Shown here piece after piece: positions 4,179 through 28,055 of a DNA stretch of 35,211 bases (position 1 is the stretch's first letter; each line of letters begins with the position of its first letter). The position numbers and the translations under genes are program-made. Below the pieces are notes generated by a model. The model did not search any database and had not been told where the DNA came from. It saw nothing but the letters and a program-made list of their open reading frames with translations. This DNA comes from an uncultured Candidatus Saccharibacteria bacterium. Its GTDB lineage: Bacteria > Patescibacteriota > Minisyncoccia > Phycocordibacterales > UBA918. The stretch lies in contig CAYRER010000004.1 in NCBI GenBank assembly GCA_964423385.1, positions 1-35,211 of the forward strand, given 5' to 3'.

Positions 4179-4745
4179 ATGCGCACATTTTTTCTCCAAG
4201 ACATTCCGCTTGCGGACATACGACACAACGACCTCCCTGCGTATCTCGCTGAGGGGTTCGGCGGGAAACCGATTGAGGAGTGGCCGGTGTACCGGTTCTT
4301 CACAATGTACTGGGAGGGTAACCGGGAAGAGGCCACCAGAGAGTTTGTCGAGTGGTACAGGGACCAGCTTGGGAAGTACGCGATGGTGCCGAAGCGGGAC
4401 GGAGGGATGCGCCGAGGTTCTCTCTACAACCTCATTGAGAAGCGGTGCGGCGTGCCGTTTGAGAAGACGGAAACCTCCTGCCGCGAGGCGACAATCCGGG
4501 AGCGCGTCTCACAGCGGCTCGGACTCCTCGACACCATACAGAGCCGCGGGTACCAGGCGGGGGAGGCAGAGCGCATCGACGGATTTCGGGAAAAGGGATT
4601 TGTGTACCTCACCGGAGGGCACCACCGCGCGGCAATCCTCAAGGTGCTCGGGGAGGAGAAGCTCCCCGGCGTGTTAGTATTCCCGAACCGGCTCGTTTAT
4701 AATTTCTTCACCTTACTCCGAAACATTCGACATGGCAGTATTTAA
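4179..4745 (+). CDS. Hypothetical protein with a ParB/sulfiredoxin-like GGHHR motif
   Basis: ATG at 4179, 20 nt after the upstream stop; the track ORF starts at a GTG at 4113 inside the upstream gene. The C-terminal segment GFVYLTGGHHRAAILKVLG resembles the GxxHR nucleotide-binding signature of the ParB/Srx fold. No other family was recognised. Confidence 0.6.
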   Translation: MRTFFLQDIPLADIRHNDLPAYLAEGFGGKPIEEWPVYRFFTMYWEGNREEATREFVEWYRDQLGKYAMVPKRDGGMRRGSLYNLIEKRCGVPFEKTETSCREATIRERVSQRLGLLDTIQSRGYQAGEAERIDGFREKGFVYLTGGHHRAAILKVLGEEKLPGVLVFPNRLVYNFFTLLRNIRHGSI

Positions 4746-10409: not shown

Positions 10410-10413
10410 GCGT

Positions 10414-13536: not shown

Positions 13537-14187
13537 ATGGCCTATATTTACAACATCTCGAGAGTACTGATGCAGGAGCAGATTAAGAAGATGGGCCCCT
13601 ATATCAAGGGGAAGGTTCTGGATGCGGGGAGCGGAAGTTACAGCCGGTACAGCCATCTCTTTTCAGCAGAATCAGTCGTTCGGCTTGATATGGTTGAGGG
13701 AAAGAACGTCGATGTCGTCGGGAATGTTGAACAGATGCCCTTTTCTGATGGAGAGTTCGACTCAATACTGTCGACTCAGGTTCTTGAGCACGTTGAGTAT
13801 CCAGAGAAGGCAGTTGCAGAGATGTTCAGAGTCTTAAAGACGGGGGGTCATGTGCTCATAACGGTTCCGCAATGGAATGAGCTCCATGAGGAGCCGCATG
13901 ATTTTTGGCGATATACTCGTTTCGGCCTCGAGTCACTTTTTGGAAGGAACGGATTTGACGTGGTCGAGTATGCTCAGGTAGGCGGCTTCTTTTCCACTCG
14001 TATGAAGATGACATCACGGTATCTGATAGACAGATTCAATCTTTACAATAGATTCTATACGCGTGTGGCGTCGGTACTGTTCCATCTCTGGGGAGCTCTT
14101 GCAATCTTGCTGGACAAGCACGACACCAGCGTTGCAAACAGGAGGCACACGATTAACTGGGTCTTCGTGTTCAGGAAGAGGGGTTAG
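13537..14187 (+). CDS. Class I SAM-dependent methyltransferase (Methyltransf_11-like)
   Basis: SAM motif I VLDAGSGSYSRY, then ILSTQVLEHVEYPEKAVAEMFRVLKTGGHVLITVP. Confidence 0.8.
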   Translation: MAYIYNISRVLMQEQIKKMGPYIKGKVLDAGSGSYSRYSHLFSAESVVRLDMVEGKNVDVVGNVEQMPFSDGEFDSILSTQVLEHVEYPEKAVAEMFRVLKTGGHVLITVPQWNELHEEPHDFWRYTRFGLESLFGRNGFDVVEYAQVGGFFSTRMKMTSRYLIDRFNLYNRFYTRVASVLFHLWGALAILLDKHDTSVANRRHTINWVFVFRKRG

Positions 14188-14207: not shown

Positions 14208-15455
14208 ATGAAGATAGTATTCCTTTCCGACGACTTTCCGCCCCAAAGCTTCGGGGGTGCAGGTATTTCTACGTATGAGCTCGCGCGTGGCATGCAAAGG
14301 GCCGGACATAAGGTCTTTGTTATTACTACATGCAGAGACGCAGCGGACGCAAAAACTCTCGTATATGACGGACTGACGATACATAGGATTGCGAGCAACT
14401 ACCATCCCCGGTGGCGTTTCTATCGGAACCTCTGGAATGTACCGGCCGTTCGAAAGGTTGCAGTCTTGCTCAAGGAAATACGGCCGGACGTCGTGCATGC
14501 GAATAATATTCACTACTACCTCTCGTACCGCTGCCTTAAGGTTGCGAAACGATATGCCCCTGCCGTTGTGTTTACGGCCCGGGACCATATGCTGTTTAAC
14601 TTCGGGAAACTAGAGACACGGCAGTATCTAGAAACATTTAATCCTCGTACAACCTGGCGTGATCATCTTCGTCAGGCAGGGAAGCGGTACAATCCGCTCT
14701 ACACCTTCTTTGTGCGCAGATACTTACGGTATGTGGACCGAATCTTTGCCATCAGCAATGCACTCCGTGATGCGATGGAACAGAATGGTATTAAGCCTGT
14801 CAGCGTAATCCATAACGGCATCGAGGCGGATGAATGGAAGATTGAGCAGACTGCCGTACAGCATTTTAGGGAGAAACATAACCTGGTAAATAAGAGGATA
14901 CTTCTCTTCAGTGGACGGTTGAGTTCCTCAAAGGGCGGAGCAAAGGTAATTGAAGCGCTCCGGAGTATCGTGCGGGAGGTTCCCGACGCAGTGCTGCTTG
15001 TCGTCGGCACTATCGATGAATACGCGCGCTCGATGCAGCGCTATGCGGATGCATCTGGCGTCGGTGCACACCTTATATTCTCCGGCTGGATTAACCGGAA
15101 CGAAATCAAATATGCATATGGAGTCGCTGATGTGGTGCTTATGCCGTCAATCTACCTCGAGCCGTTTGGAAGAATAAGCATTGAGGCGATGGCGGCAGGG
15201 AAGCCGGTTGTGGGAACATGCTTCGGCGGTACGCCGGAGGTCGTTGAAGACGGGGTGACCGGGTACATCGTCAATCCGCTCCACCCGGAGGAAATTGCGG
15301 TGAAAACAATCGACCTCCTCAAGAATTCTGAGAAAGCAGTCCAATTTGGAAAGGCGGGACACGCACGGCTCCTTGAACGCTTTTCGTTGGAGGAGAAAGT
15401 CAGGGAGTATATAATGGCGTACGAATCTGTCATTGAGGAGGAGGGGCGTTTATAG
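14208..15455 (+). CDS. Glycosyltransferase, GT4 (canonical)
   Basis: MKIVFLSDDFPPQSFGGAGISTYELARGMQRAGHKV N-terminus. Canonical E-x7-E region PSIYLEPFGRISIEAMAAGKPVVGT. Confidence 0.85.
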   Translation: MKIVFLSDDFPPQSFGGAGISTYELARGMQRAGHKVFVITTCRDAADAKTLVYDGLTIHRIASNYHPRWRFYRNLWNVPAVRKVAVLLKEIRPDVVHANNIHYYLSYRCLKVAKRYAPAVVFTARDHMLFNFGKLETRQYLETFNPRTTWRDHLRQAGKRYNPLYTFFVRRYLRYVDRIFAISNALRDAMEQNGIKPVSVIHNGIEADEWKIEQTAVQHFREKHNLVNKRILLFSGRLSSSKGGAKVIEALRSIVREVPDAVLLVVGTIDEYARSMQRYADASGVGAHLIFSGWINRNEIKYAYGVADVVLMPSIYLEPFGRISIEAMAAGKPVVGTCFGGTPEVVEDGVTGYIVNPLHPEEIAVKTIDLLKNSEKAVQFGKAGHARLLERFSLEEKVREYIMAYESVIEEEGRL

Positions 15456-15475: not shown

Positions 15476-16264
15476 ATGAATACAAAGAAAGTTATCGGAA
15501 TTGTTCCAGCACGAATGGGGTCAAGCCGGCTTCCCGGGAAGGCACTGAAGCCGATTCTCGGCATGCCCATGGTCGGACACTGCTACCTTCGGACGAAGAT
15601 GTGCCAGCTCCTCGACGAGGTGTACATCGCGACGTGCGATGAGGAAATCAAGACCTACGGAGAGAGCATCGGCGCAAAGGTCATCATGACCGCGAACACT
15701 CACGAGCGCGCGATGGACAGAACCGCCGAAGCAATCGAGAAGATTGAAAAGGAGACGGGCGAAGAGGTCGGCATCGTCGTACAGATGCAGGGAGACGAGC
15801 CGATGATTACCCCGGAGATGCTCACCGAGGCGACACAGAAGATGATTGATGATGAATCAATCAACATTATGAACCTTGTGACCCCCATCATCGATAAACG
15901 CGACCTCGAGATTCCCGATACGCTCAAGGTGGTGACCGACCTCAAGGGGAACATGCTCTACTACTCACGCGCAACGATTCCTTTTGATACCGGAAAATAT
16001 GACGGTGAGGTGCCGTACCTGAAGACCCTCGGCATCCACCTCTTCAGGAAGGACTTCCTCTACGAATTCCAGCAGATGGAACCGACCCCGCTTGAAATCA
16101 TCGAGTCGACGGACATGCTCCGCATCCTCCAGCACGGCAAGCCGATTGCGACCTACACGACGAAGACGCACATCTGCGCCGTCGATACGCAGGCAGACCT
16201 CGACCTCGTTGCGTCCCTCATGAAGGGCGACCCGCTCGTACAGACGTACCTTCCTGAGGCCTAA
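15476..16264 (+). CDS. kdsB: 3-deoxy-manno-octulosonate cytidylyltransferase-like (CMP-Kdo synthetase family)
   Basis: IVPARMGSSRLPGKAL, MQGDEPMITP, YYSRATIPFD, LGIHLFRKDF and VDTQADLDLV align block by block with E. coli KdsB (IIPARYASTRLPGKPL, VQGDEPMIP, YFSRATIPWD, VDTPEDLERV). Confidence 0.8.
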   Translation: MNTKKVIGIVPARMGSSRLPGKALKPILGMPMVGHCYLRTKMCQLLDEVYIATCDEEIKTYGESIGAKVIMTANTHERAMDRTAEAIEKIEKETGEEVGIVVQMQGDEPMITPEMLTEATQKMIDDESINIMNLVTPIIDKRDLEIPDTLKVVTDLKGNMLYYSRATIPFDTGKYDGEVPYLKTLGIHLFRKDFLYEFQQMEPTPLEIIESTDMLRILQHGKPIATYTTKTHICAVDTQADLDLVASLMKGDPLVQTYLPEA

Positions 16265-16383
16265 TTTCGCGCAACAATAGGGGTGCTCCCAGAGTTGTAT
16301 ATCTCCGTAGAATCCGGGTTTTTCCCGGTGGTGAAATAGGCCGGATTCGTGTACCATCGGGGAGCATAGGGGGAATACACACA

Positions 16384-18570
16384 ATGGCAGAGAAGAAGAG
16401 AATACCAATCATAGTCGTCGGAACGGGGCACCATTTCCAGAGGAATCTCGCCCCGGCGCTCACGAAGCTCATCGAGCTCGGACTCATCGAGGTCATCACG
16501 ACCGTGGATATTCTCGTGCGCGGCGAGCAGCGTGACTTGGGTCACGTCGCACACGTGAAGCGGAACAACCGTCCGCTCCACGAGCAGCTTAAGGAGTACA
16601 AGAAGCTCGACCCCATTGTCATCCTCGGACACACGAATGGGCTTCATGCGAAGGATGCACACGACCTCCTCTCGCACGGCTTCCGGGTCATCGTCGAGAA
16701 GCCGTACGCTATCACGGCACAGTCGCTTGCAAAACTGGTGGGCGCTATAGATTCGGAGCGCACCGGTTTTCTCGAATACTATCTCGCAATGAAATCGGTC
16801 CCGCTCCTTCTCGGGTACGGGGAGGTGAGCCCGAAGAGCTTCTACCTCACCGAAAAGCTGATGAATCCAACCCGGCACTTCGCGAAGTATGCGAAGTCCG
16901 TCGCCGCGTTCAGAAGAATGCTCCCGAACATCATCGGTACCGTGACAAAGGTTGAGGTTGAGGTGCTGGAAGGGGAAGGTGAGACTGGAACACTGGAGCG
17001 CCGGGGTATCGACACCATTGACGTCCGCTTCGGCGGGGGCTCGATACAGGATATGGCCATCCACGCCATCGCGCCGGTTCTCGCTCTTGAGCGCACCATC
17101 GGGTCTCTCCCCGAGGATGTCTCGTACTCGGCACGTTCCGCACGGTGCGTTGAGTACGTGCGTATGGCCCGCAAACGCTTTGCGATTCCGCTTGAGCACA
17201 TCGGGGAGACATACGCCGAATTTTCATACGTGACAACAAAAGGAATTCCGGTGACTGCCCGTGTCGGAAAGTACGTTTTCGAGGATTACAACCGTCGGGG
17301 TCTCCGCATTACGGGGACAAAGGGTGAGGTCTATATGGACTGGAACTCCTGCACGCTCTATGTAAACGGCACGCCGATTCTCGAAATGGAGAAGAGCTAC
17401 TATCCGGTCGTCCGCGCCGCGATTGAAGGGCTCTCGAAGATGCCGCTCTTTGGGTTTGACGCCCTCGATGTCGCAGCCCGAGCACAGCAGGCGGTGTTTG
17501 ATGTTCAGAAGGCAGCGTACGCATTCAGCAGAGATGCGTACTATAACCGACACACGAATCCGGCTGACATCTTCTCTGAAGCGACCGCAGACTGCGGAGC
17601 AGAGATTCATGATGAAGTGCTCCGTCCGGAAGACGACCACAACGAGTGGCTCAAGATTATCGGAAAGGAGCTCCCCGAGTTTTTCCCGAAACGTGCACGG
17701 GAGCACGTCCGCTGTCCGGGGTGCGGCTCAGAGGAGGTTGAATCGGAGTTTCTCAAGCTCGGATTCATCTACAAGTGGTGCAAGGACTGCTTCTCTCTCT
17801 ACGCGTCACCGCGCCCGAGCGAGCGGGAGGTGGATGCTTTCTACCGGGATTCCGAAGCAATGCGCTTCTACGCCGAGAACATATTCAAGGCAACACTCGA
17901 TGCCCGGCGCGAGCACCAGATTGCACCGCTTGCACAGTGGGTGAAGAAGACGATGCCCGCACGCATGCCGAAGGGGGTCTCTGTCCTCGACTTCATGCCG
18001 AAGTTCTATTCCGTGTGGCCGGAAGTGCTCTCCCCGAAGCATCAGGCAAACGTGCTCCTCGTTGACCCGGTGCACCTCCACAAAGCGCCGGAGCCTGCGA
18101 CGGTCGGAAGTCTCACGGCAGCGAAGCGCCGAACGTACGATTTCATCACAGCGTTTGACGTCCTCGAACACCGGGCTGATCCCGACACAACCATCAAGAT
18201 GCTCTCCAAGCTCTGCAACAGCGGGGGTACGCTCTTTCTCACACTCAATGCCGGAGGCTTCGAGTACCAGGTTCTCGGACAGGACTCGCACCGGCTCGTG
18301 CCGCCAAGCAGGCTCAATCTCCTCACGGTAGAGGCGCTCGAACACCTCCTCACGAAGCACGGCTTTGAGCCCATCGACGTGACCTCGACCGGCAAGCTCG
18401 ATGTCGACATCGTACTCAAGGCGCTCGCAGAGGACCGTTCAACCTCGGTTGCCCGGTTCTTCTCGTACCTCCTCAAGAAGCGGGGCGCGGAGGTGAGCGA
18501 GTCGCTCCAGCAGTTTCTCCAGGAACACAAGCTGAGTTCATTCGTCCGCGTTGCGGCGAGGAAAAAGTAA
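16384..18570 (+). CDS. Fusion protein: N-terminal Gfo/Idh/MocA-type NAD(P) oxidoreductase, Cys4 zinc ribbon, and C-terminal class I methyltransferase-fold domain
   Basis: N-terminal region: IPIIVVGTGHHFQRNLAPAL and HGFRVIVEKPYAIT (EKP motif). Middle: CPGCGSEEV...WCKDCFSLYASPRP. C-terminal region: FITAFDVLEHRADPDTTIKMLSKLCNSGGTLFLTLN. The expected glycine-rich SAM motif I reads VLDFMPKFYS, so it is degenerate. Confidence 0.75.
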   Translation: MAEKKRIPIIVVGTGHHFQRNLAPALTKLIELGLIEVITTVDILVRGEQRDLGHVAHVKRNNRPLHEQLKEYKKLDPIVILGHTNGLHAKDAHDLLSHGFRVIVEKPYAITAQSLAKLVGAIDSERTGFLEYYLAMKSVPLLLGYGEVSPKSFYLTEKLMNPTRHFAKYAKSVAAFRRMLPNIIGTVTKVEVEVLEGEGETGTLERRGIDTIDVRFGGGSIQDMAIHAIAPVLALERTIGSLPEDVSYSARSARCVEYVRMARKRFAIPLEHIGETYAEFSYVTTKGIPVTARVGKYVFEDYNRRGLRITGTKGEVYMDWNSCTLYVNGTPILEMEKSYYPVVRAAIEGLSKMPLFGFDALDVAARAQQAVFDVQKAAYAFSRDAYYNRHTNPADIFSEATADCGAEIHDEVLRPEDDHNEWLKIIGKELPEFFPKRAREHVRCPGCGSEEVESEFLKLGFIYKWCKDCFSLYASPRPSEREVDAFYRDSEAMRFYAENIFKATLDARREHQIAPLAQWVKKTMPARMPKGVSVLDFMPKFYSVWPEVLSPKHQANVLLVDPVHLHKAPEPATVGSLTAAKRRTYDFITAFDVLEHRADPDTTIKMLSKLCNSGGTLFLTLNAGGFEYQVLGQDSHRLVPPSRLNLLTVEALEHLLTKHGFEPIDVTSTGKLDVDIVLKALAEDRSTSVARFFSYLLKKRGAEVSESLQQFLQEHKLSSFVRVAARKK

Positions 18571-18581
18571 GTATCCAAGGT

Positions 18582-19679
18582 ATGACACACCGGTTTACAG
18601 GGGAGAGCGAAGGCTACGTGCGGGTCTCGGAGGCATCGCTCCGGACGGTTACGGAATCCATCTTTATGCAGATGGGGGTACCCGAAGCGGACGCGCGCCT
18701 CGCAACCGACGTACTCGTCTCCTCTGACCTCCGGGGCATCGAGAGCCACGGTGTCTCCAACATGCTCCGCAAGTACGTGCGTGACTACCGGAACGGAAAG
18801 CTCAATCCGACGCCCGCGTGGCGCATCATCCGTGAGACCCCGTCAACGGCGAGCATTGATGCGGACGCTGGCCTCGGCCTCATCATCGCGCCTCGGGCGA
18901 TGGAGATTGCGATTCGGAAAGCACAGGAAGTCGGCATCGGCATGGTCACCATGAAGAATGTCGGGCACATGGGCATGGTTTCGTACTATCCGATGATGGC
19001 GCTCTCCCACGACATGATTGGCCTCGGCATGACCTCCTCGCCGCCCGAGGTTGTTCCGACCGGCGGGGCAGAGCCCCGACTCGGCACAAACCCGATTGCC
19101 CTCGCTGCTCCGGCAAACCGTCAGATTCCCTTTGTCTTTGATGCAGCTACGTCGGTTGTCTCAAACAACAAACTCGGCATCGCCCGCCGCCTCGGCGTGA
19201 AGCTGCCGCCGGGCTGGATTGCTGACGCCGAGGGTACTCCGCTCATGCGGGAAGCCGACCCGCCGCCGGAAGGCCGCGGCCGCGCGAACATGCTCCCGCT
19301 CGGGTCTGCACCGGAACTCAGCTCCCACAAGGGGTACGGTCTCGGGTGCGTCGTTGAGATTCTGAGTGGCATTCTCGCCGGCGGTGGATTCGGTGCAGCA
19401 GAACGGAAGACAGGATACTCACACATGGTCGCGGCATACCGCATCGATGCTTTCATGGATACCGGGGAGTTTAAGAACACAATGGACGAATGGCTCAAAG
19501 TCCTCAAGGAAACGAAACCTGCGAAGGGTGAGACGCGGGTACTCTATCCGGGCATTCTCGAGCAGGAATCCGAGGAGGAAAACAGAAAGAGGGGAATTCC
19601 GCTCCATCGAGAGACCGTGAAGTGGTTTTCAGATACCTGCAGTGAACTTGGCATTGAGGCGTCCGTCGAGGAAATATGA
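18582..19679 (+). CDS. Ldh_2 family (malate/L-lactate/sulfolactate/diketogulonate-type) NAD(P)H-dependent oxidoreductase
   Basis: DVLVSSDLRGIESHGV, GTNPIALAAP and SSHKGYGLG are typical Ldh_2 blocks. Confidence 0.8.
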   Translation: MTHRFTGESEGYVRVSEASLRTVTESIFMQMGVPEADARLATDVLVSSDLRGIESHGVSNMLRKYVRDYRNGKLNPTPAWRIIRETPSTASIDADAGLGLIIAPRAMEIAIRKAQEVGIGMVTMKNVGHMGMVSYYPMMALSHDMIGLGMTSSPPEVVPTGGAEPRLGTNPIALAAPANRQIPFVFDAATSVVSNNKLGIARRLGVKLPPGWIADAEGTPLMREADPPPEGRGRANMLPLGSAPELSSHKGYGLGCVVEILSGILAGGGFGAAERKTGYSHMVAAYRIDAFMDTGEFKNTMDEWLKVLKETKPAKGETRVLYPGILEQESEEENRKRGIPLHRETVKWFSDTCSELGIEASVEEI

Positions 19680-20413
19680 ATGATATAAGACAGTTTGCTG
19701 AAATTGCCGAGCACGCGGCGCGTGCCGCAGGAGCATTTCTTCGCGGACACCGGGCAACGCTCGTCGCAAGCTTCGGCAAAGATACAAAGATTGATGCCGA
19801 TATGCGGGCACATACGCTCATCGTCGAGCACCTTGCCCCCACTGGCATACCGGTGCTTTCCGAGGAGGGCGCTGAACACACGTTCACCGATGCGCGCATG
19901 TGGGTAGTAGATCCACTCGACGGGAGCATCAACTTCCTCCGCGGAATTCCAAATGCGGCGGTCTCGATAGCGCTCGTTGAGCGGGGAGAGCCGGTGTTCG
20001 GAGTCATCTACGATTTTATGCGGGATGAGCTCTACAGTGGTGTCGTCGGCGGCGGCGCACAGCTCAATGGGAAAGACATTTCTGTTTCCGATACCAGAGA
20101 CAAGCGGGAGGGCATCATCATGACCGGGTTCCCGTCGTACACCGACTACGCGCGCGAAGCTCTCGAGCAGTACATTGCGCTCGTACAGGGTTTTAAAAAG
20201 GTCCGCCTCATCGGCTCTGCCGCACTCTCGCTCGCGTACGTCGCTTCGGGAAAGGCGGATGCGTACTACGAGAAGGACATAAAGATCTGGGATGTCGCGG
20301 CGGGACTCGCGCTCGTCCGCGCCGCAGGCGGGAGCGTCACGGCGAGCGCCGTCGGTGAAGCGGGGAAGTGCACGGTCTTTGCCGGGAACGGAGCGATTGT
20401 TCTCGAGGGCTGA
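19676..20413 (+). CDS. Inositol monophosphatase family phosphatase (SuhB/CysQ-like; substrate unknown)
   Basis: VLSEEG, WVVDPLDGSINF and WDVAAG motifs are present. ATGA start/stop overlap with the upstream gene. Confidence 0.8.
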   Translation: MNDIRQFAEIAEHAARAAGAFLRGHRATLVASFGKDTKIDADMRAHTLIVEHLAPTGIPVLSEEGAEHTFTDARMWVVDPLDGSINFLRGIPNAAVSIALVERGEPVFGVIYDFMRDELYSGVVGGGAQLNGKDISVSDTRDKREGIIMTGFPSYTDYAREALEQYIALVQGFKKVRLIGSAALSLAYVASGKADAYYEKDIKIWDVAAGLALVRAAGGSVTASAVGEAGKCTVFAGNGAIVLEG

Positions 20414-20430
20414 GGGTACACACAAAGAAA

Positions 20431-20461
20431 GGCGCCCGTCCCAGAGACTGGGACGGGCGCC
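20431..20461. terminator. Perfect 14-bp GC-rich hairpin between convergent genes; the T-tract lies on the minus strand
   Basis: ggcgcccgtcccag / aga / ctgggacgggcgcc. The flanking cacaaagaaa reads as tttctttgtg on the minus strand. Confidence 0.6.
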
Positions 20462-20477
20462 GGTGTCAGAAGGAACA

Positions 20478-21503
20478 TCAGCTGGTGAGCGCGCTCACGA
20501 TGGCGTCCGCCGCCCCCGCAAACTTCTCGGGAGTGAGCACCGCTTCCTGCTGCGCTTTCATCGCCTGTGCGCCACCGTTCAGCAGCCCGTGCATTCCGAG
20601 CGAGAGGCCGTCGACATCACGGGTCTCCCTCGAGATGGAGATCCGGGCGGGTGGCCAGAAGGACAGTCCGCTCAGTTCTTCCCACCAGAGCACGTCGAGG
20701 GGGAGGATGTGGTCGATGACCGGCACCCGCTGACACCCCGCCATGAGCGTGATGGTCGATCCACTGCCCGTGACGGCGAGGTCGGCTGCGGCGAAGAGTT
20801 CCTGCGTGCTCAGCGAGATGCCGCTTTCGAGGAATCCCGCCGTGTGCGTCGACCAGCGAAGGACGCTCCGGTAGAGCTCTCGCGGGTGGTCGGCCCCGGG
20901 GTGTGCCGTGAAGAGGAGTCGGAGCGGCCTCTCGACACGTCGCGCTGCGAGCACTACGTCGGTGAACAACCCGACGTTCCTCTCGAGCTCCTTGGAGCCG
21001 GAGATGAGCACGAGCTTTTCTTCCGAGAGGCCGAGCCGACCGCGCACTACGTCGCGGTTTGCGGTCGCGAAGAACGTCGCCCAGTACGGGTTGCCCGAGG
21101 CCACGATGGTGGCTTCGGGACGTACGTACGTGCGGGCGACATCCCGCTCGGATTCGTCGGTGATGAAGAGCAGGTTCGCTCCCCGCACGACCTCCGCAGA
21201 CCAGGGGCGATGGTATGCCCCGTAGATGTCCGAAAAGACCGCGGTGTGTACGCCGAGGAGCTTCGCCTGGAGCGCCGCGTGGCGCTCCTCGACGACCCGG
21301 TCGGCCGACGACGAGATGCCGGTGAGGAGCCAGTCGGCTCCTTGGAGCGCCTCGTCGATTTTCTCGAGGCTCCCTTCGGGGAGGGGCTTGCCGTCTCCAA
21401 GGAAGCAGGATACGGTGCACCCAGGCTCCCGGAGGAGAGCATCCGCAACGATACGGAACGTGTTGCTCGGACCCGCATCGCGAGTTACGATGACGATTTT
21501 CAA
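20478..21503 (-). CDS. Hypothetical protein, GT-B-like two-Rossmann architecture (family not recognised)
   Basis: On the minus strand, AGGAGG (21509-21514) lies 5 nt upstream of a TTG start at 21503, giving MKIVIVTRDAGPSN. The ORF is open up to the ATG at 21563. The C-terminal LAVTGSGSTITLMAG resembles GT-B donor-site loops. Confidence 0.6.
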   Translation of the reverse strand: MKIVIVTRDAGPSNTFRIVADALLREPGCTVSCFLGDGKPLPEGSLEKIDEALQGADWLLTGISSSADRVVEERHAALQAKLLGVHTAVFSDIYGAYHRPWSAEVVRGANLLFITDESERDVARTYVRPEATIVASGNPYWATFFATANRDVVRGRLGLSEEKLVLISGSKELERNVGLFTDVVLAARRVERPLRLLFTAHPGADHPRELYRSVLRWSTHTAGFLESGISLSTQELFAAADLAVTGSGSTITLMAGCQRVPVIDHILPLDVLWWEELSGLSFWPPARISISRETRDVDGLSLGMHGLLNGGAQAMKAQQEAVLTPEKFAGAADAIVSALTS

Positions 21504-21670
21504 GAGAACCTCCTGGTAGGAACGAAAACCCCCCGTTTTTACGGATGGGGGAACTCGCAACATTCTATAACATTTGCACTATTCTGTCAACTGCCGGACA
21601 TCTCACAAAAGCTAGTGAATACGCTGTCTTTTGAGTGCCGCTTCTGGTACCATGGGGGCTCAATACCCGC

Positions 21671-23437
21671 ATGAGCATGAGAGAGAAACAAGCACTTGTC
21701 ATCTTTGGAGATGTCATCTCCAAAGACGGGAGACGCCTCATCCCGGTGCACGGGACAGTTATTGCGCCGCGCTCGCTCGAGGGTGAGGTTGCTGCGCTCG
21801 GCGGGGAGCACCGTCCCCTCGAGCCGTTCATTGAGCCGGGGAGCATCTACGAGGCGAGCGCGCTTGCTGGCGAACTCTCCCAACTCACGCTCCCAGACGG
21901 TACACCCGTCAGAAAGGCGTTCACCTTCAAGGGCTTCGACCTCTGGTGGCTCAACTACCAGAACCTGTTCACCCGCTTCTGTCTCCCATACACGCAGTAC
22001 CGGAAGCTCCTCGAGCATCTCAAGGATTTTGAGAGTGTCACTTTCGTAAACCCCCCGTTTGCGAGTCTCTTCTCGTGTTACCTGCGCGCACATGCCACAG
22101 GTGTGTCCGTTGTTCGCTCAAATCGGTCTGAAGCCCGGCAGAGACTGCCGCTTGGCATCATCGTACAGATGTTCCTCACGCTCCTCGCTGTACCGCTCGC
22201 GGCGGTACAGCGGAAGCCCATCATGGTTTCTACCGGTGACAAGTTTGAGACGGGGAGAGACTACGATTTCCGGATGCGGTTTGCGTACGAAGAACTCCGG
22301 CGCCGAGAGCTCCCCTTTGTCGAGTTTGTGCGTAGTCTCGAATCATCAAAAATGATACTTCAGCATGCGTGGAAGCGAAGACGGCCGGTCATCTACACAG
22401 AAGCAGTCACCTTCCTCGCCCGGTTTGTGAGCGTTGCCTTCGGCGGACACCGTCGCGCCCGGGCACGGTTCGGTGATCAGGTGTTTGCGGCAATTCAGAC
22501 TCCGAAGGATCGGTTTAAGTCGATTATTGGCGTGCAGTACCTACTCACCGCGTACGACGATATCATCGCAATACGCATCATGGAGTGGATTGTGCGGATT
22601 ATCGGTGTGAAGGCGGCGTTTGTTCCGGCGACAACAGAGCGTAACTTCCACACGGTTCTTGGGTGCAAGCTCGCGGGAGTACCTACGGTCGGCATACTCC
22701 ACGGCGCCGCATCCCGCAACTACAATCTCTACGAATTTACGCCAGGATTTGACGGAGAGAGGCGCCTTTCGGTCGACCGATACGGCGTGTGGAGTCAGTG
22801 GTGGAAGGAATATTTTGAGAAGTACGGGAATGCATATGCTCCGGAGCAGATATTTGTCTCTGGCCCTATGCGTCCGATTCAGAAGACGGGAACCATCCCC
22901 ACTGCATCACCAACTAATGATGGAAGAGTGAAGGTGCTCCTTGTCTCCGAAGTCGTTGCAATTCCAACCGAGGTGGTGCCGTATCTTGACACGCTCCTCG
23001 CAACTTCAGACTTTTCCGTACACATAAAATTCCGTGCAACGCACGATAGTTTCGAACAGTGGCTCATCGACAACCGACCGGATATTCTCGCAGCAGTCGG
23101 TTCGGCTCGCATCCTTAAGGGAACGATGCAGGAAGCGATTACGGTATGCGACGTCGTTGTCGGCTGTCAGAGCACCGGGGTTATTGAGGCGACGCTTCAA
23201 AACAAGCCGTTCGTCTTTTTCAGAACAAATAAATGGGGAGACTATTTTGATATGAAATCCTACGACCCGAGACATCACTTCTTTGCAGAGAACTCGGAAG
23301 AGCTTATACGCTTCATCCGTGAAGGGAAGGCAATTCCTCATTCAGTTCTTGAAACGCTCCGGGAGCGTTTCTTCGGTGACCCGTACAAGAACGGGAGTGC
23401 ATGGGTCATTGATGAGCTGGTGTCCATTCTTCATTAA
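21671..23437 (+). CDS. Hypothetical large protein (about 590 aa); its C-terminal half resembles GT-B capsule-type glycosyl- or phosphotransferases
   Basis: Long uninterrupted ORF with ordinary amino-acid composition. Segments VPTVGILHGAASRNYNLYEF, VKVLLVSE and DVVVGCQSTGVIEATLQNKPFVFF look like Rossmann beta-alpha units. The start is uncertain: ATG 21671, ATG 21677 or GTG 21635. Confidence 0.6.
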   Translation: MSMREKQALVIFGDVISKDGRRLIPVHGTVIAPRSLEGEVAALGGEHRPLEPFIEPGSIYEASALAGELSQLTLPDGTPVRKAFTFKGFDLWWLNYQNLFTRFCLPYTQYRKLLEHLKDFESVTFVNPPFASLFSCYLRAHATGVSVVRSNRSEARQRLPLGIIVQMFLTLLAVPLAAVQRKPIMVSTGDKFETGRDYDFRMRFAYEELRRRELPFVEFVRSLESSKMILQHAWKRRRPVIYTEAVTFLARFVSVAFGGHRRARARFGDQVFAAIQTPKDRFKSIIGVQYLLTAYDDIIAIRIMEWIVRIIGVKAAFVPATTERNFHTVLGCKLAGVPTVGILHGAASRNYNLYEFTPGFDGERRLSVDRYGVWSQWWKEYFEKYGNAYAPEQIFVSGPMRPIQKTGTIPTASPTNDGRVKVLLVSEVVAIPTEVVPYLDTLLATSDFSVHIKFRATHDSFEQWLIDNRPDILAAVGSARILKGTMQEAITVCDVVVGCQSTGVIEATLQNKPFVFFRTNKWGDYFDMKSYDPRHHFFAENSEELIRFIREGKAIPHSVLETLRERFFGDPYKNGSAWVIDELVSILH

Positions 23438-24246: not shown

Positions 24247-25509
24247 TTAACCCCGGCTTACGCGTAACCACAGGCCAATATTGATAATAGTACCAATCAA
24301 GGTATTGAGTAGATTTGCATACACTAGGCCAATTACTCCCCCCCAGATACCACCAACAACATAGAGTACGACTGCAATACCACTTTGCATGAATGTCCGA
24401 CTAAAAAGAGTCCTCGAGAGGCCCTGAGAAGTGAACAGGAGACTCATATATCGATTGGGGAGAGCAAAAATGAAGTTCATGGCAAGCAGCTGGGAGTAGC
24501 GGATGCTCTCAAGGTACTGGGGCAGGAGGTACGTAAATACATACGGCGAGACAATAATGTATCCCGCTGTCGCGGTAAGGCCGATGAGCATTCCCTGGAC
24601 AATCCGCCGGTAGAACACCTGGTTGATTTCAGCAAACGTCTTTTCGGCAAACTTCGGGAATCCGACCGCCACCCAGCTCTTGATGAAGAGCGTTGCACGC
24701 GCAGGGATGGCACTCGCGAGTGCATAGACCGCAAGGGGTCCGGCACCCCAGAAACTTCCGAGGATGAGCTTGTCGACCTGAGAGACAACAGGATCAATGA
24801 AGCGCAGGTAGGTGAGCTCTCTGCCGTACTGCTCCGTCTCCCGTATGTCAGGTGCAGCGCCAAGCCCGAATCTCCGGACAACATACACGTAAAAGACGTA
24901 TGCGGGGATGAAGGTAGCTGCCGTGTACGCAACGATGAGCCAGACAACTTCATCGGTCAGAAGAAGCGCAACAAGCATACCGAGGGAATACGTGAGCGTT
25001 GAGAGGACGCTGAGGACGTTCGCAAGTCCGAACCGTTTCATTCCCTCGAGGTACGAGCTGTACGTATTGAAGGCGAGCGTGAAGGGAACGAACGAACCGA
25101 GGATGAGGAGAGCTGTACCAAGTACCTGGTCTCCCTGAGAGAGGTAGTACCCGCCGAGGACGTATGACGCAGCGAGCATGAGAAGATTCCACTTGAACTG
25201 GTAGCCGACCGCCGGACGGAGTACATCTTCGCCACCGCGCGCAACGGCCCGCGCAACGGCATTGTTCATGCCGGTGAGCGTGAAGATGTTGAGAATGCCG
25301 GCGATGGAGAGTATGTAGCGGTAGAGACCGTACGTTTCCTTCGGGAGCAGGTTGGCAAACGCAATGACGAGAAGGAGCGAGAGAACGCTGTTCATTGTCT
25401 GACCGAGCACTACCCAGGAGCCGCTCTTTGCAATATAGAGCATGTCCGCACGGGTATATTTCTGACTCCAGAGGAGGATGTTTCTGGCGTGTGTTCGAAT
25501 ATTTCTCAC
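24247..25509 (-). CDS. wzx: Wzx-type oligosaccharide flippase (MOP superfamily polysaccharide biosynthesis protein)
   Basis: A 420-aa polytopic membrane protein. The N-terminus (KYTRADMLYIAKSGSWVVLGQTMNSVLSLLLVIAFANLL...YGLYRYILS) is typical of flippases in polysaccharide clusters. GTG start with AGGAG immediately upstream. Confidence 0.75.
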   Translation of the reverse strand: MRNIRTHARNILLWSQKYTRADMLYIAKSGSWVVLGQTMNSVLSLLLVIAFANLLPKETYGLYRYILSIAGILNIFTLTGMNNAVARAVARGGEDVLRPAVGYQFKWNLLMLAASYVLGGYYLSQGDQVLGTALLILGSFVPFTLAFNTYSSYLEGMKRFGLANVLSVLSTLTYSLGMLVALLLTDEVVWLIVAYTAATFIPAYVFYVYVVRRFGLGAAPDIRETEQYGRELTYLRFIDPVVSQVDKLILGSFWGAGPLAVYALASAIPARATLFIKSWVAVGFPKFAEKTFAEINQVFYRRIVQGMLIGLTATAGYIIVSPYVFTYLLPQYLESIRYSQLLAMNFIFALPNRYMSLLFTSQGLSRTLFSRTFMQSGIAVVLYVVGGIWGGVIGLVYANLLNTLIGTIINIGLWLRVSRG

Positions 25510-25631: not shown

Positions 25632-26225
25632 ATGAAGGAGCATATCAGGGAGTCGATTGCGGTGAAGGAGCGTCTGCTCAAGGACGATGCATTTCTCCGG
25701 ACACTCGGGGAGGTTGTTGAAGAGCTCAGGGGGGTGTACGAACGGGGAGGAAAAATCCTCATTGTTGGGAATGGGGGAAGCGCTGCGGACGCACAGCATT
25801 TTGCAGCGGAGATTACGTGCCAGTTTAAAGAGACGAGGAGGGGGTACCCTGCCCTCGCACTCCACACAGACACTTCCGCGATGACCGCGTGGGGGAACGA
25901 CAAGAGCTTCGATACGGTCTTCGCACGACAGGTCGAAGCTCATGGGCGGGCAGGTGACGCTCTCGTCGTTATTTCGACGAGTGGAAACTCAAAGAATCTC
26001 ATTGCTGCTGCGAAAGAGGCACGAGTGAAAGGTCTTCGCATTGTGGGACTCCTCGGCAGAGACGGTGGGGAGCTTGTGAGTGGAGGATACTGTGATCACG
26101 TACTCATTGTGCCGTCAGAAGAGACTCCTCGCATTCAGGAGTCGCACATCCTTCTCATCCACATCATTTGCGACGCTCTCGATGGGTTTTTTGTGACGCT
26201 CGCCAAGCAGGATTCTGAACGATAG
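25632..26225 (+). CDS. gmhA: D-sedoheptulose-7-phosphate isomerase (phosphoheptose isomerase, SIS domain)
   Basis: GNGGSAADAQHFAAE, VISTSGNSKN and IQESHILLIHIICD are present. The 197-aa size fits GmhA. Confidence 0.9.
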   Translation: MKEHIRESIAVKERLLKDDAFLRTLGEVVEELRGVYERGGKILIVGNGGSAADAQHFAAEITCQFKETRRGYPALALHTDTSAMTAWGNDKSFDTVFARQVEAHGRAGDALVVISTSGNSKNLIAAAKEARVKGLRIVGLLGRDGGELVSGGYCDHVLIVPSEETPRIQESHILLIHIICDALDGFFVTLAKQDSER

Positions 26226-27973: not shown

Positions 27974-28055
27974 ACCTTGACGCACGAGCGAACCCGTAAT
28001 GAAGTGAGCCGTGGTTTCATGGGGGAAGGGGAGGTATGGTATAGTTTTTGACACT

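What the first reader, a model, noticed from the sequence alone, without database searches (positions are those of the whole stretch)
15476..20413. Co-directional block kdsB / oxidoreductase-methyltransferase fusion / Ldh_2 dehydrogenase / IMPase: candidate pathway for a modified ulosonic acid
Seen: four genes lie on one strand with gaps of 119 nt, 11 nt and a 4-nt ATGA overlap.
- A KdsB-like cytidylyltransferase.
- A 728-aa Gfo/Idh/MocA oxidoreductase fused to a methyltransferase-fold domain.
- An Ldh_2-family keto-acid/hydroxy-acid dehydrogenase.
- An IMPase-family sugar-phosphate phosphatase.

Established: KdsB-family enzymes CMP-activate 2-keto-3-deoxy sugar acids. Ldh_2 enzymes reduce keto groups of hydroxy and keto acids, including 2,3-diketogulonate. 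Gfo/Idh/MocA enzymes oxidise sugar hydroxyls to keto groups.

Inference: the block could make and activate an epimerised and/or methylated Kdo-like acid by oxidation, methylation or re-reduction, dephosphorylation and CMP activation. The canonical HAD phosphatases KdsC and GmhB are not in the window, so the IMPase-family enzyme may be a non-orthologous replacement. I do not know of a described pathway with this combination.
Basis: partly seen in the sequence, partly recalled or inferred. Interest (0 to 1): 0.65.

Follow-up and report, generated by a model that had tools for sequence, protein, structure and literature searches.

The report
Synthase-free CMP-sugar-acid cassette, Patescibacteria glycan island
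The four genes are a real, conserved unit in the surface-sugar locus of ultra-small (CPR) bacteria that most likely makes and CMP-activates an unusual Kdo-like sugar acid without the usual Kdo synthase, by an undescribed route also found in DPANN archaea.

Summary
The four ORFs, their spacing (119 nt, 11 nt, ATGA overlap) and their family assignments are exact.

The block is conserved in order in two other lineages. It is one variant of a replaceable "sugar-acid cassette". The cassette sits at a fixed place in a Patescibacteria glycan island: GT4 – cassette – 590-aa GT-B protein – Wzx – Wzy_C/TPR – MurB – SecA.

Other islands carry canonical KdsA+KdsC+KdsB, or CTP-transferase+NeuB+IMPase, at that place. 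The window type carries no condensing synthase. Instead it has a KdsB-clade enzyme, a Gfo/Idh/MocA oxidoreductase, a 2-hydroxyacid dehydrogenase and a phosphatase, with or without a GmhA-like isomerase. Ldh_2 is interchangeable with D-2-hydroxyacid dehydrogenase, and IMPase with HAD.

A related module occurs in DPANN archaea. One archaeal locus fuses cytidylyltransferase to Gfo, and dehydrogenase to IMPase.

Best reading (inferred): ketose-P → aldose-P → aldonate-P → 2-keto-aldonate-P → free 2-ulosonic acid → CMP-sugar.

"Oxidise, methylate and re-reduce Kdo" is not: no KdsA was found, and the methyltransferase-like domain has lost its glycine-rich SAM motif.

No enzyme activity has been tested.

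The parts
14208..15455 (+). GT4 glycosyltransferase; conserved upstream neighbour of the cassette
   Evidence: Pfam Glycos_transf_1 and Glyco_transf_4. It lies directly upstream of KdsB in L001, L004, L005, L010, L014, L027-L030 and L034-L039.
15476..16264 (+). KdsB-clade cytidylyltransferase; inferred to CMP-activate the 2-ulosonic acid
   Evidence: PF02348; TIGR00466 above its cutoff. The best match among solved structures is E. coli capsule K-CKS 1gq9. Motifs PARMGSSRLPGK and QGDEP are present. It is 62-85% identical to the KdsB of sister cassettes but only 34% identical to the KdsB that sits with KdsA/KdsC in L028.
16384..17583 (+). N-terminal half of the 728-aa fusion: a divergent Gfo/Idh/MocA oxidoreductase ('FusN')
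   Evidence: Weak Pfam hit. Motifs GTGHHF, EKPY and GGGSIQDMAIHA are present. AF2 model plus Foldseek: the top hit is L-arabinose 1-dehydrogenase 7cgq/6jnj, followed by other Gfo enzymes. The family is small: 42 clusters with E<1e-30 among 1.84 billion representatives.
17713..17790 (+). CPGC...CKDC zinc-ribbon motif at the start of the C-terminal half of the fusion
   Evidence: Seen directly in the sequence and conserved in all homologues.
17968..18570 (+). Class-I methyltransferase-like domain of the fusion; SAM motif I is degenerate (LDFMPKFYS at 17986-18012)
   Evidence: Methyltransf_23 at 52.1 bits. The alignment shows GxGxG lost here and in L005, L007, L012_MT1 and L014. It is kept in L012_MT2 and in the methyltransferases of the HpcH-type clusters. 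The domain is a separate gene in L007, L012 and L014.
18582..19679 (+). Ldh_2-family L-2-hydroxyacid dehydrogenase; inferred to form the 2-keto group
   Evidence: PF02615 at 354.5 bits. It falls below every NCBIfam equivalog cutoff. The best solved structures are type-2 malate and sulfolactate dehydrogenases. PGDH-like 2-Hacid_dh takes its role in L005, L014, L034-L039 and the DPANN loci.
19676..20413 (+). IMPase-family phosphatase; inferred to dephosphorylate the sugar-acid phosphate (KdsC analogue)
   Evidence: PF00459 at 191 bits. Metal-binding motifs SEEG, DPLDGS and WDVAAG are present. It falls below the SuhB, CysQ and HisN cutoffs. It is swapped for HAD in L010 and fused to 2-Hacid_dh in L017. 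A distant IMPase-family gene follows NeuB in L089.
20431..20461 (.). 14-bp GC-rich hairpin between the convergent IMPase gene and the minus-strand gene; marks the end of the four-gene unit
   Evidence: Terminator scan and direct reading of the sequence. The T-tract lies on the - strand.
20478..21563 (-). 361-aa protein of unknown function; the real gene between IMPase and the GT-B protein
   Evidence: The translation looks protein-like, whereas the + frame does not. A 47%-identical homologue lies at the same place in L010. A promoter-like TTGACA-17-TAGAAT sits at 21590-21562. No Pfam or NCBIfam hit.
21671..23437 (+). 588-aa GT-B-fold protein; conserved downstream partner of the cassette and putative transferase for the activated acid
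   Evidence: At least 328 homologues at about 50% identity; those that carry a source name are nearly all Patescibacteria. AF2 pLDDT 89.7 with a GT-B fold. Weak NCBIfam hits to BFO_1060 glycosyltransferase and TIGR04396. It follows the cassette in L001, L005, L007, L010, L012, L014, L027-L030, L034-L036, L039 and L088-L090.
24247..25509 (-). Wzx-type flippase of the island
   Evidence: Pfam Polysacc_synt. It holds the same position in L001, L005, L010, L027-L029 and L034-L036.
25632..26225 (+). GmhA-like sedoheptulose-7-P isomerase; candidate first step. It lies in the block in sister cassettes and 5 kb downstream here
   Evidence: SIS_2. NCBIfam gmhA at 184 bits against a cutoff of 209. It is adjacent to the module in L005, L007, L010, L012, L014, L015, L018, L021, L034 and L039.
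28011..30239 (+). Wzy_C/TPR O-antigen-ligase-like membrane protein; fixed right-hand part of the island, ahead of MurB and SecA
   Evidence: Pfam. The same order is seen in L027, L028 and L088-L090.

Best explanation
The four genes are the variable "sugar-acid cassette" of a conserved Patescibacteria surface-glycan island. Together with a GmhA-like isomerase they make a 2-ulosonic (Kdo-like) acid without any PEP- or pyruvate-condensing synthase, and they activate it as a CMP-sugar for the neighbouring GT-B protein.

Proposed route:
1. GmhA-like isomerase: ketose phosphate (most simply sedoheptulose-7-P) to aldose phosphate.
2. Gfo/Idh/MocA domain: C1 oxidation to the aldonolactone or aldonate phosphate.
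3. Ldh_2 (or 2-Hacid_dh in sister cassettes): oxidation of the C2 hydroxyl to the 2-keto acid.
4. IMPase-family phosphatase: removal of the terminal phosphate, the role KdsC plays for Kdo-8-P.
5. KdsB-clade enzyme: CMP transfer.

The product would be a non-3-deoxy 2-ulosonic acid, for example D-altro-hept-2-ulosonic acid.

Shown: gene order, family membership, synteny, swaps and fusions. Inferred: every catalytic step, the substrate and the direction of each dehydrogenase. The methyltransferase-like domain may be catalytically inactive.
For: 1. Synteny and swaps.
- The exact block recurs in L001/L030 and L004.
- L005 and L014 carry KdsB, 2-Hacid_dh, Gfo with the methyltransferase (fused in L005, a separate gene in L014), SIS_2 and IMPase.
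- L034 and L039 carry KdsB, 2-Hacid_dh, a canonical Gfo, SIS_2 and IMPase.
- L035 and L036 carry a minimal operon: GT4, KdsB, 2-Hacid_dh, Gfo and the GT-B protein.

2. DPANN archaea carry cytidylyltransferase, Gfo, 2-Hacid_dh, IMPase and GmhA next to a BFO_1060-like glycosyltransferase and a Wzx. L017 fuses CTP_transf_3 to GFO and 2-Hacid_dh to IMPase.

3. The dehydrogenase is the tightest partner of this KdsB clade. It is present in 16 of 17 KdsB-anchored loci of at least 10 kb. KdsA is present in 0 of 17.

4. At the same island position other genomes carry KdsA+KdsC+KdsB (L028) or CTP-transferase+NeuB+IMPase (L089), and those two carry no dehydrogenase pair. No window-type or DPANN module locus carries KdsA or NeuB.

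5. KdsB identity tracks cassette type: 62-85% within the type, 41-50% to other dehydrogenase-type cassettes, and 34% to the KdsA-linked one.

6. Ldh_2 and 2-Hacid_dh both act at C2 of carboxylic acids. The 2-Hacid_dh copies score best to phosphoglycerate dehydrogenase, and PdxB is also among their matches; both use phospho-acid substrates.

7. L004 inserts a 6-phosphogluconolactonase-like gene between KdsB and the fusion.

8. The top structural match of the Gfo domain is an aldose 1-dehydrogenase. A Poribacteria homologue sits next to a UxuA-type aldonate dehydratase.

9. Chemical precedent, from my own knowledge: Epd and PdxB convert an aldose-P to an aldonate-P and then to a 2-keto-aldonate-P; G6PD and Pgl perform the C1 oxidation and lactone hydrolysis.
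Against: - No biochemistry exists for any of these proteins.
- The position oxidised by the Gfo domain is unresolved. Foldseek E-values for C1-, C2- and C3-oxidising Gfo enzymes are nearly equal. The canonical Gfo that replaces FusN scores best, below threshold, to IolG, levoglucosan dehydrogenase and UDP-GlcNAc 3-dehydrogenase.
- L088 has the canonical Gfo next to the GT-B protein with no KdsB or dehydrogenase within 7 kb.
- L010 has KdsB, the fusion, HAD and GmhA but no 2-hydroxyacid dehydrogenase within 10 kb.
- Ldh_2 enzymes are L-specific and 2-Hacid_dh enzymes are D-specific. The swap therefore needs C2-epimeric substrates to reach one product. This partly fits the co-swap with SIS_2 subtype, but not in DPANN.
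- About 20 more distant loci of the KdsB clade have an HpcH/HpaI aldolase directly upstream of KdsB, so a condensing route exists in relatives.
- Whole genomes could not be checked for a distant kdsA.
- The window's KdsB passes the kdsB equivalog cutoff, so unmodified Kdo cannot be excluded as its substrate.
- The predicted sugar has not been reported in any glycan in the searched literature.
Confidence: 0.45

Rival explanations
1. Kdo, or Kdo-8-P, is made by unlinked kdsA/kdsD genes or is salvaged from a Gram-negative host. The cassette only tailors it, by oxidation with the Gfo domain, methylation, and reduction or epimerisation. IMPase acts as the Kdo-8-P phosphatase and KdsB activates the modified Kdo.
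For: - The KdsB homologue passes the kdsB equivalog cutoff and best matches capsule K-CKS.
- The GT-B partner is about 55% identical to the one that follows a canonical KdsA/KdsC/KdsB cassette in L028.
- L088 shows the Gfo next to the GT-B protein without KdsB, which suits a tailoring role.
- The island is rich in methyltransferases.
- CPR bacteria are episymbionts that scavenge metabolites (own knowledge).
Against: - No KdsA lies in the window or in the fetched flanks (about 8-10 kb) of any window-type locus, whereas the canonical island keeps KdsA and KdsC inside the cassette.
- Ldh_2 and 2-Hacid_dh enzymes act on alpha-keto or alpha-hydroxy acids. In Kdo that position is the anomeric carbon, so a ring-keto re-reduction by them has no precedent.
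- The methyltransferase-like domain lacks the SAM glycine loop. It is absent from the DPANN and minimal cassettes.
- The GmhA-like isomerase has no role in this model unless it acts as an arabinose-5-P isomerase.
Confidence: 0.2
2. The dehydrogenase and phosphatase make a small keto acid. For example, 3-phosphoglycerate goes to 3-phosphohydroxypyruvate and then to hydroxypyruvate. An HpcH-type aldolase condenses that acid with an aldose supplied by GmhA, giving a 3-hydroxy (Ko-like) or 3-deoxy ulosonic acid. Alternatively the enzymes make a glycerate, malate or lactate substituent of the glycan.
For: - The 2-Hacid_dh copies score best to phosphoglycerate dehydrogenase.
- The 2-Hacid_dh::IMPase fusion in L017 fits consecutive dehydrogenase and phosphatase steps.
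- An HpcH/HpaI aldolase lies in L007, L012 and L021 and directly upstream of KdsB in about 20 related loci.
- The upstream GT4 has sub-threshold similarity to BshA and MshA.
Against: - No aldolase lies in the window, in L001, L004, L005, L010, L014, L030 or L034-L039, or in the six DPANN loci that carry the cytidylyltransferase.
- This model gives the Gfo enzyme no role.
- The module has no acyl-activating enzyme for attaching a substituent.
Confidence: 0.15
3. The genes are unrelated housekeeping genes that happen to be adjacent. The IMPase would be a plain SuhB or a CysQ serving the nearby sulfate-activation gene. The Ldh_2 would be a malate dehydrogenase. KdsB alone would serve the glycan.
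For: - An ATP-sulfurylase/APS-kinase gene lies 6 kb downstream.
- The best solved-structure matches of the IMPase are SuhB-type inositol monophosphatases, and those of the Ldh_2 are type-2 malate dehydrogenases.
Against: - The order is conserved across lineages, and across the two domains of life.
- Gene fusions occur in L017.
- IMPase stays in the block in islands that lack the sulfate-activation gene; that gene is shared only with a fragment in L017.
- All equivalog cutoffs for SuhB, CysQ, malate dehydrogenase and sulfolactate dehydrogenase are missed.
- The ATGA overlap and the 11-nt gap indicate co-translation of the last three genes.
Confidence: 0.05

Closest known systems
Canonical CMP-Kdo pathway (KdsD, KdsA, KdsC, KdsB)
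   Same: - The overall logic is shared: sugar-phosphate isomerase, formation of a 2-keto sugar-acid phosphate, phosphatase, then a PF02348 CMP-transferase.
- The KdsB homologue passes TIGR00466.
- A canonical KdsA/KdsC/KdsB cassette occupies the same island slot in L028.
   Different: - There is no KdsA-type PEP condensation.
- The isomerase is GmhA-like (SIS_2), not KdsD.
- The phosphatase belongs to the IMPase family, not HAD.
- Two dehydrogenases are present instead of a synthase.
- The predicted product keeps its 3-hydroxyl and may have 7 carbons.
Epd (GapB)/PdxB steps of PLP biosynthesis, and G6PD/Pgl of the oxidative pentose-phosphate pathway
   Same: - The proposed chemistry matches: aldose-P to aldonate-P by C1 oxidation, then a 2-Hacid_dh-family enzyme oxidises C2-OH to the 2-keto acid (own knowledge).
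- The 2-Hacid_dh copies score best to phosphoglycerate dehydrogenase, with PdxB also among their matches.
- A Pgl-like gene lies in L004.
   Different: - The enzyme families for the first step differ: Gfo/Idh/MocA here, against GAPDH-like Epd or G6PD.
- The product is CMP-activated for a glycan rather than transaminated.
- No equivalog cutoff is met.
Nonulosonic-acid (Neu/Leg/Pse/Kdn) cassettes in surface-glycan loci
   Same: - A CMP-activated acidic sugar is made by a compact cassette next to its transferase and a flippase.
- The GT-B partner has weak hits to BFO_1060 and TIGR04396 surface-carbohydrate proteins.
- L089 carries CTP-transferase+NeuB+IMPase in the same slot.
   Different: - The window carries no NeuB, no aminotransferase or acetyltransferase, and no UDP-GlcNAc-derived precursor genes in the block.
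Ko (D-glycero-D-talo-oct-2-ulosonic acid) in Acinetobacter, Burkholderia and Yersinia LPS
   Same: - Ko is a natural non-3-deoxy 2-ulosonic acid in a glycan. It shows that such sugars exist (own knowledge; PMC4019464 names Ko).
   Different: - Ko is made by hydroxylating Kdo after its transfer (KdoO; own knowledge), not as a CMP-sugar made de novo.
- The organisms and the enzymes are different.
ADP- and GDP-heptose pathway (GmhA, HldA/HddA, GmhB, HldC/HddC)
   Same: - It starts from sedoheptulose-7-P with a GmhA-type isomerase and includes a sugar-phosphate phosphatase.
- The window also holds a PfkB kinase and a GT9 heptosyltransferase elsewhere.
   Different: - The block has no anomeric kinase.
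- The nucleotidyltransferase is a CMP-transferase for keto acids.
- Two dehydrogenases are unaccounted for in heptose activation.

Membership tests
KdsB / CMP-Kdo synthetase (PF02348, TIGR00466) | The profile score reaches the curated equivalog cutoff | tested here: met
   TIGR00466 at 174.5 bits against 155.2; NF003952 at 242.4 against 193; PF02348 at 160.9.
KdsB / CMP-Kdo synthetase (PF02348, TIGR00466) | The catalytic P-loop (PARxxSxRxPGK) and the QGDEP metal motif are present | tested here: met
   PARMGSSRLPGK at residue 11 and QGDEP at residue 105; aligned with K-CKS 1gq9.
KdsB / CMP-Kdo synthetase (PF02348, TIGR00466) | Kdo is the substrate | not testable with these tools
   This needs an enzyme assay. 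Indirect evidence: only 34% identity to the KdsB that is linked to KdsA/KdsC in L028, against 62-85% within the cassette type.
Canonical Kdo biosynthesis operon | A KdsA (Kdo-8-P synthase) and a KdsC (HAD phosphatase) accompany KdsB | tested here: not met
   tblastn with L028 KdsA and KdsC finds nothing in the window or in any module locus. NeuB is also absent from the window-type and DPANN module loci. Whole genomes were not available.
Gfo/Idh/MocA oxidoreductases | Rossmann domain with the EKP motif, a C-terminal alpha/beta domain with GGG..D...H, and the family fold | tested here: met
   PF01408 at 26.3 bits against 24 (marginal). EKPY at 105-108 and GGGSIQDMAIHA at 217-228. Foldseek E values of 1e-13 to 1e-11 to many Gfo structures.
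Aldose 1-dehydrogenase subgroup of Gfo/Idh/MocA | Oxidation at the anomeric carbon | tested here: inconclusive
   The top Foldseek hit is L-arabinose 1-dehydrogenase, but C2- and C3-oxidising members score almost equally. There is no NCBIfam hit.
Class I SAM-dependent methyltransferases | The profile match reaches the cutoff | tested here: met
   Methyltransf_23 at 52.1 bits against 27, residues 529-664.
Class I SAM-dependent methyltransferases | A glycine-rich motif I (E/DxGxGxG) that forms the SAM pocket | tested here: not met
   The window has LDFMPKFYS. Related methyltransferases (L012_MT2, L050, L051, L054, L061, L066, L067) keep D[IV]G[AG]G[FYH]G.
Ldh_2 (type-2 malate/L-lactate/sulfolactate dehydrogenases) | Pfam family membership | tested here: met
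   PF02615 at 354.5 bits over the full length.
Ldh_2 (type-2 malate/L-lactate/sulfolactate dehydrogenases) | Assignment to a characterised specificity: sulfolactate, malate, ureidoglycolate or 2,3-diketogulonate | tested here: not met
   All equivalog scores fall below their cutoffs: 218.8 against 500, 195.6 against 336, 195 against 356, 104.6 against 316.
IMPase superfamily | Family profile and metal-binding motifs | tested here: met
   PF00459 at 191.2 bits; SEEG, DPLDGS and WDVAAG are present.
SuhB / CysQ / HisN / archaeal FBPase-IMPase equivalogs | The score reaches the equivalog cutoff | tested here: not met
   131 against 264, 130.8 against 332, 114 against 228.8, 110.4 against 275.
GmhA (sedoheptulose-7-P isomerase), window 25632-26225 | The score reaches the equivalog cutoff | tested here: inconclusive
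   TIGR00441 at 184 bits against 209.45; NF010546 at 191 against 276. These are the best hits but fall just below the cutoffs.

The most novel reading that the evidence does not exclude
CPR bacteria and DPANN archaea share a horizontally exchanged pathway that needs no condensing synthase. It turns a ketose phosphate into a CMP-activated, non-3-deoxy 2-ulosonic acid by isomerisation, two successive dehydrogenations at C1 and C2, and dephosphorylation by an IMPase-family enzyme. The product, for example D-altro-hept-2-ulosonic acid from sedoheptulose-7-P, would be a sugar not yet reported in any glycan. It would be a second, independent biochemical solution to making Kdo-like surface sugars.
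Probability: 0.3. Interest if true: 0.8.

Novelty: new variant of a known kind. Interest (0 to 1): 0.62.

Why it matters
Every described route to a CMP-activated keto-sugar acid (Kdo, Kdn, sialic, legionaminic and pseudaminic acids) depends on a KdsA/NeuB-type condensation with PEP. A cassette that reaches a KdsB substrate with two dehydrogenases instead would add a new pathway type and probably a new monosaccharide.

It would also give the first functional handle on the surface glycans of Patescibacteria and DPANN. These episymbionts attach to their hosts through cell surfaces that are essentially uncharacterised.

The fixed island with exchangeable cassettes resembles an O-antigen or capsule serotype locus. 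That suggests diversifying selection on the surface glycans of these organisms.

The work also predicts new activities for four large, poorly resolved enzyme families.

Tried and rejected
- The + strand ORF 20292-21674 (460 aa), which I first scanned as a candidate gene downstream of the block, was rejected. Its translation is arginine-rich and not protein-like. The - strand ORF 20478-21563 has a homologue in L010, a promoter-like site and a terminator hairpin.
- I considered that the third cassette type (KdsB + GT2::Zn-ADH + 2-Hacid_dh) uses a glucose-1-dehydrogenase-like MDR enzyme and so repeats the same C1+C2 logic. This is not supported: the domain best matches sorbitol, iditol and threonine dehydrogenases.
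- I hoped Foldseek would show which position the Gfo domain oxidises. It does not discriminate. A sequence search of solved structures was nearly empty.
- I hoped the fold of the 590-aa partner would identify a Kdo- or sialyl-transferase. It is a generic GT-B fold, with top hits to NeuC/UDP-GlcNAc 2-epimerases and GT4 enzymes.
- The 594-aa conserved unknown 10393-12177 is not a paralogue of the GT-B protein.
- An inositol pathway (IMPase + IolG-like Gfo) was considered and dropped. There is no inositol-phosphate synthase, and it leaves KdsB, the 2-hydroxyacid dehydrogenase and GmhA unexplained.
- IMPase as a CysQ for the nearby sulfate-activation gene was considered and dropped. IMPase stays in the block in islands without that gene.
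- Literature searches for heptulosonic or hexulosonic acids, for KdsB in Patescibacteria or DPANN, for HpcH with a cytidylyltransferase, and for heptulosaric acid biosynthesis found nothing that describes this cassette.
- A strict rule of 'synthase or dehydrogenase pair, never both' does not hold in distant relatives: L041 has a NeuB-like gene together with a dehydrogenase.

Full report
**1. Observation**

- 15476-16264 (262 aa)
- 16384-18570 (728 aa)
- 18582-19679 (365 aa)
- 19676-20413 (245 aa)

The spacing is also as stated: 119 nt, 11 nt and an ATGA start/stop overlap.

Profile searches confirm the family calls.
- The first protein is a PF02348 cytidylyltransferase. It passes the TIGR00466 kdsB equivalog cutoff (174.5 against 155.2 bits).
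- The 728-aa protein has a marginal GFO_IDH_MocA hit at the N-terminus and a Methyltransf_23 hit at residues 529-664.
- The third protein is a full-length Ldh_2 (354.5 bits).
- The fourth is an IMPase-family protein (191 bits).

In the fusion, the Gfo signature motifs EKPY and GGGSIQDMAIHA are present, as is a CPGC...CKDC zinc ribbon. An AF2 model (pLDDT 73) places the N-terminal half firmly in the Gfo fold.

The block ends at a 14-bp GC-rich hairpin (20431-20461). The hairpin is shared with a convergent minus-strand gene, 20478-21563. The + strand ORF 20292-21674 that overlaps that gene is an antisense artefact.

**2. Surroundings**

The window is one long glycan-biosynthesis locus. It holds GT4, GT2 and GT9 transferases, a YdjC-like protein, at least eight methyltransferase genes, a PfkB kinase, a Wzx flippase, a GmhA-like SIS_2 isomerase, an ATP-sulfurylase/APS-kinase and a Wzy_C/TPR protein. 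MurB and SecA follow.

The 588-aa protein after the block (21671-23437) has no Pfam family. It has at least 328 homologues at about 50% identity. The hits that carry a source name are nearly all from Patescibacteria. It folds confidently (pLDDT 89.7) as a GT-B protein.

In every context I looked up, this protein lies in the same island: GT4 – variable genes – GT-B protein – Wzx – Wzy_C/TPR – (MurB) – SecA. I infer that the window comes from a Patescibacteria genome. This is not shown directly.

**3. Conservation of the block**

The fusion protein is rare. There are nine full-length homologues among 5.8 billion proteins. Its Gfo half has only 42 clusters with E<1e-30 among 1.84 billion representatives.

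Contexts of the homologues:
- The same four genes lie in the same order in L001/L002/L003/L030, which are probably one lineage, and in L004.
- L004 has one extra gene between KdsB and the fusion, a 6-phosphogluconolactonase-like gene.
- In L005 and L014 the Ldh_2 is replaced by a PGDH-like D-2-hydroxyacid dehydrogenase, and a GmhA-like SIS_2 gene joins the block.
- In L010 the IMPase is replaced by a HAD_2 phosphatase next to GmhA.
- In L034 and L039 the fusion is replaced by an ordinary 350-aa Gfo/Idh/MocA enzyme.
- L035 and L036 hold a minimal, tightly packed operon: GT4 – KdsB – 2-Hacid_dh – Gfo – GT-B protein.

**4. Across domains of life**

A genome scan found homologues of the Gfo half only in three groups: Patescibacteria, DPANN archaea (Pace-, Woese- and Nanoarchaeota) and Poribacteria.

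Six DPANN loci carry a Wzx, a PF02348 cytidylyltransferase, the Gfo and a 2-Hacid_dh next to a BFO_1060-like glycosyltransferase, usually with an IMPase and a GmhA-like gene as well. One of them, L017, encodes two fusion proteins: CTP_transf_3::GFO (612 aa) and 2-Hacid_dh::IMPase (547 aa).

These swaps and fusions show that the four activities work together. They rule out chance adjacency and a plain SuhB or CysQ role for the IMPase.

**5. What replaces what**

Other genomes carry different cassettes at the same island slot:
- KdsA + KdsC (HAD) + KdsB in L028
- CTP_transf_3 + NeuB + an IMPase-family gene in L089
- KdsB + GT2::Zn-ADH + 2-Hacid_dh in L027, L029 and L090

The two synthase-containing cassettes have no dehydrogenase pair. 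No window-type or DPANN module locus has a KdsA or NeuB within the fetched flanks.

I anchored a metagenome scan on the window-type KdsB. Among the 17 resulting loci of at least 10 kb, 16 have a 2-hydroxyacid dehydrogenase near KdsB, 10 have a Gfo and none has KdsA.

KdsB identity follows cassette type:
- 62-85% within the window type
- 41-50% to other dehydrogenase-type cassettes
- 34% to the KdsA-linked KdsB

**6. Mechanism (inferred)**

KdsB-type enzymes need a 2-keto sugar acid. Ldh_2 and 2-Hacid_dh enzymes both interconvert 2-hydroxy and 2-keto acids. The simplest way to give every conserved member a role is this route:
1. The GmhA-like isomerase converts a ketose-P to an aldose-P.
2. The Gfo enzyme oxidises C1 to the lactone or aldonate-P. 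The Pgl-like gene in L004 fits here.
3. The 2-hydroxyacid dehydrogenase oxidises C2.
4. The IMPase removes the terminal phosphate.
5. KdsB adds CMP.

The net effect is that a ketose phosphate becomes its own 2-ulosonic acid without any C-C bond formation. From sedoheptulose-7-P the product would be D-altro-hept-2-ulosonic acid.

The chemistry has precedents in Epd/PdxB and in G6PD/Pgl (own knowledge). The 2-Hacid_dh copies score best to phosphoglycerate dehydrogenase, with PdxB also among their matches; both act on phospho-acids.

Two pieces of weak support exist for C1 oxidation. The top Foldseek hit is L-arabinose 1-dehydrogenase. A Poribacteria homologue sits beside a UxuA-type aldonate dehydratase.

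**7. Caveats**

- Nothing has been assayed.
- The site of Gfo oxidation is unresolved.
- L088 has the Gfo next to the GT-B protein without KdsB or a dehydrogenase.
- L010 lacks the dehydrogenase.
- Ldh_2 is L-specific and 2-Hacid_dh is D-specific, so the swap requires C2-epimeric precursors. This fits the co-swap of SIS_2 subtype in the bacterial cassettes but not clearly in DPANN.
- About 20 more distant loci of the KdsB clade carry an HpcH/HpaI aldolase directly upstream of KdsB, together with the methyltransferase, Gfo, 2-Hacid_dh and SIS_2. A condensing route therefore exists in relatives, and the dehydrogenases may have another role there.
- Whole genomes could not be searched for an unlinked kdsA.

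**8. The methyltransferase half**

It is a separate gene in L007, L012 and L014, and it is absent from the DPANN and minimal cassettes.

In the window, L005, L007, L012 (copy 1) and L014, the glycine-rich SAM motif I is replaced by LDFMPKFYS-type sequences. Related copies (L012 copy 2 and the HpcH-type clusters) keep D[IV]G[AG]G[FYH]G.

The domain may therefore not be an active methyltransferase. "Methylated Kdo" is not the best reading.

**9. Comparison and novelty**

- The cassette works like the Kdo pathway: isomerase, keto-acid phosphate, phosphatase, CMP-transferase.
- It fails the test for the canonical operon because it has no KdsA or KdsC.
- It uses different families for the isomerase and the phosphatase.
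- It puts two dehydrogenases in place of the synthase.

No paper in the searched library describes it. I rate it a new variant of a known kind, namely a CMP-ulosonic-acid cassette in a surface-glycan locus.

My confidence is 0.45 in the stated explanation as a whole. About 0.3 of that is for the specific synthase-free chemistry. I have higher confidence, about 0.7, in the broader statement that this is a dedicated cassette producing a CMP-activated acidic sugar for the island's glycan.

Noticed in passing
window 20292-21674 (+) versus 20478-21563 (-): The long + strand ORF after the IMPase gene is an arginine-rich antisense shadow. The real gene is a 361-aa protein on the - strand with no family hit. 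It has a near-consensus promoter-like site (21590-21562) and a strong hairpin terminator (20461-20431). Its only homologue in the fetched loci lies at the same place in L010.
   Followed up: partly
window 26290-27939: A fused ATP-sulfurylase/APS-kinase (PAPS synthesis) lies inside the glycan island, between GmhA and the Wzy_C/TPR gene. This hints at a sulfated glycan. No sulfotransferase was looked for. The gene is not present in the sister islands examined.
   Followed up: partly
window 2070-3176(-), 4732-5415, 6577-7473, 9678-10409, 13537-14187, 23502-24245, plus the fusion: The density of methyltransferase genes in one glycan locus is unusually high, including an FkbM-type and a Trm112-like-domain protein. 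This suggests a heavily O-methylated glycan.
   Followed up: no
window 10393-12177: A 594-aa protein with no Pfam family and a hydrophobic sequence. It is conserved at 47-59% identity in L001, L004, L010 and L014. It is a second large island-specific unknown and is not related to the GT-B protein.
   Followed up: partly
L017 9347-11185 and 11163-12806: A Nanoarchaeota locus encodes two fusion proteins: CTP_transf_3::Gfo/Idh/MocA (612 aa) and 2-Hacid_dh::IMPase (547 aa).
   Followed up: yes
L051 12118-13212 (also L050, L054 and L057 neighbourhoods): HpcH-aldolase-type relatives of the cassette include an AroB-related sugar-phosphate cyclase (TIGR04425, above its cutoff), SDRs and a PF04199 cyclase. 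This suggests a more elaborate acid sugar in those organisms.
   Followed up: no
L027 6187-8043; L029 5547-7397; L090 1137-2990: A GT2 glycosyltransferase fused to a sorbitol-dehydrogenase-like Zn-ADH sits between KdsB and a 2-Hacid_dh. This forms a third cassette type in the same island slot.
   Followed up: partly
L008/L009 10001-11878: A 625-aa protein whose N-terminal part is homologous to the Gfo half of the fusion sits inside a type I restriction-modification operon, between the HsdS and HsdM genes. This is an unexplained context.
   Followed up: no
window 3142-4158 and 4113-4745: A PfkB-family kinase is followed by a 210-aa ORF with no family hit, just upstream of a methyltransferase and a GT9 heptosyltransferase. 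It may be a heptose-activation pair. The 210-aa protein is not recognisable as a nucleotidyltransferase.
   Followed up: partly
window 34426-34878: A PF04020 (4-TMS holin superfamily IV) membrane protein lies directly after SecA.
   Followed up: no
window 90-926: A UDP-glucose/GDP-mannose dehydrogenase-like ORF of only 278 aa. It has the N-terminal and central domains but apparently no C-terminal domain.
   Followed up: no
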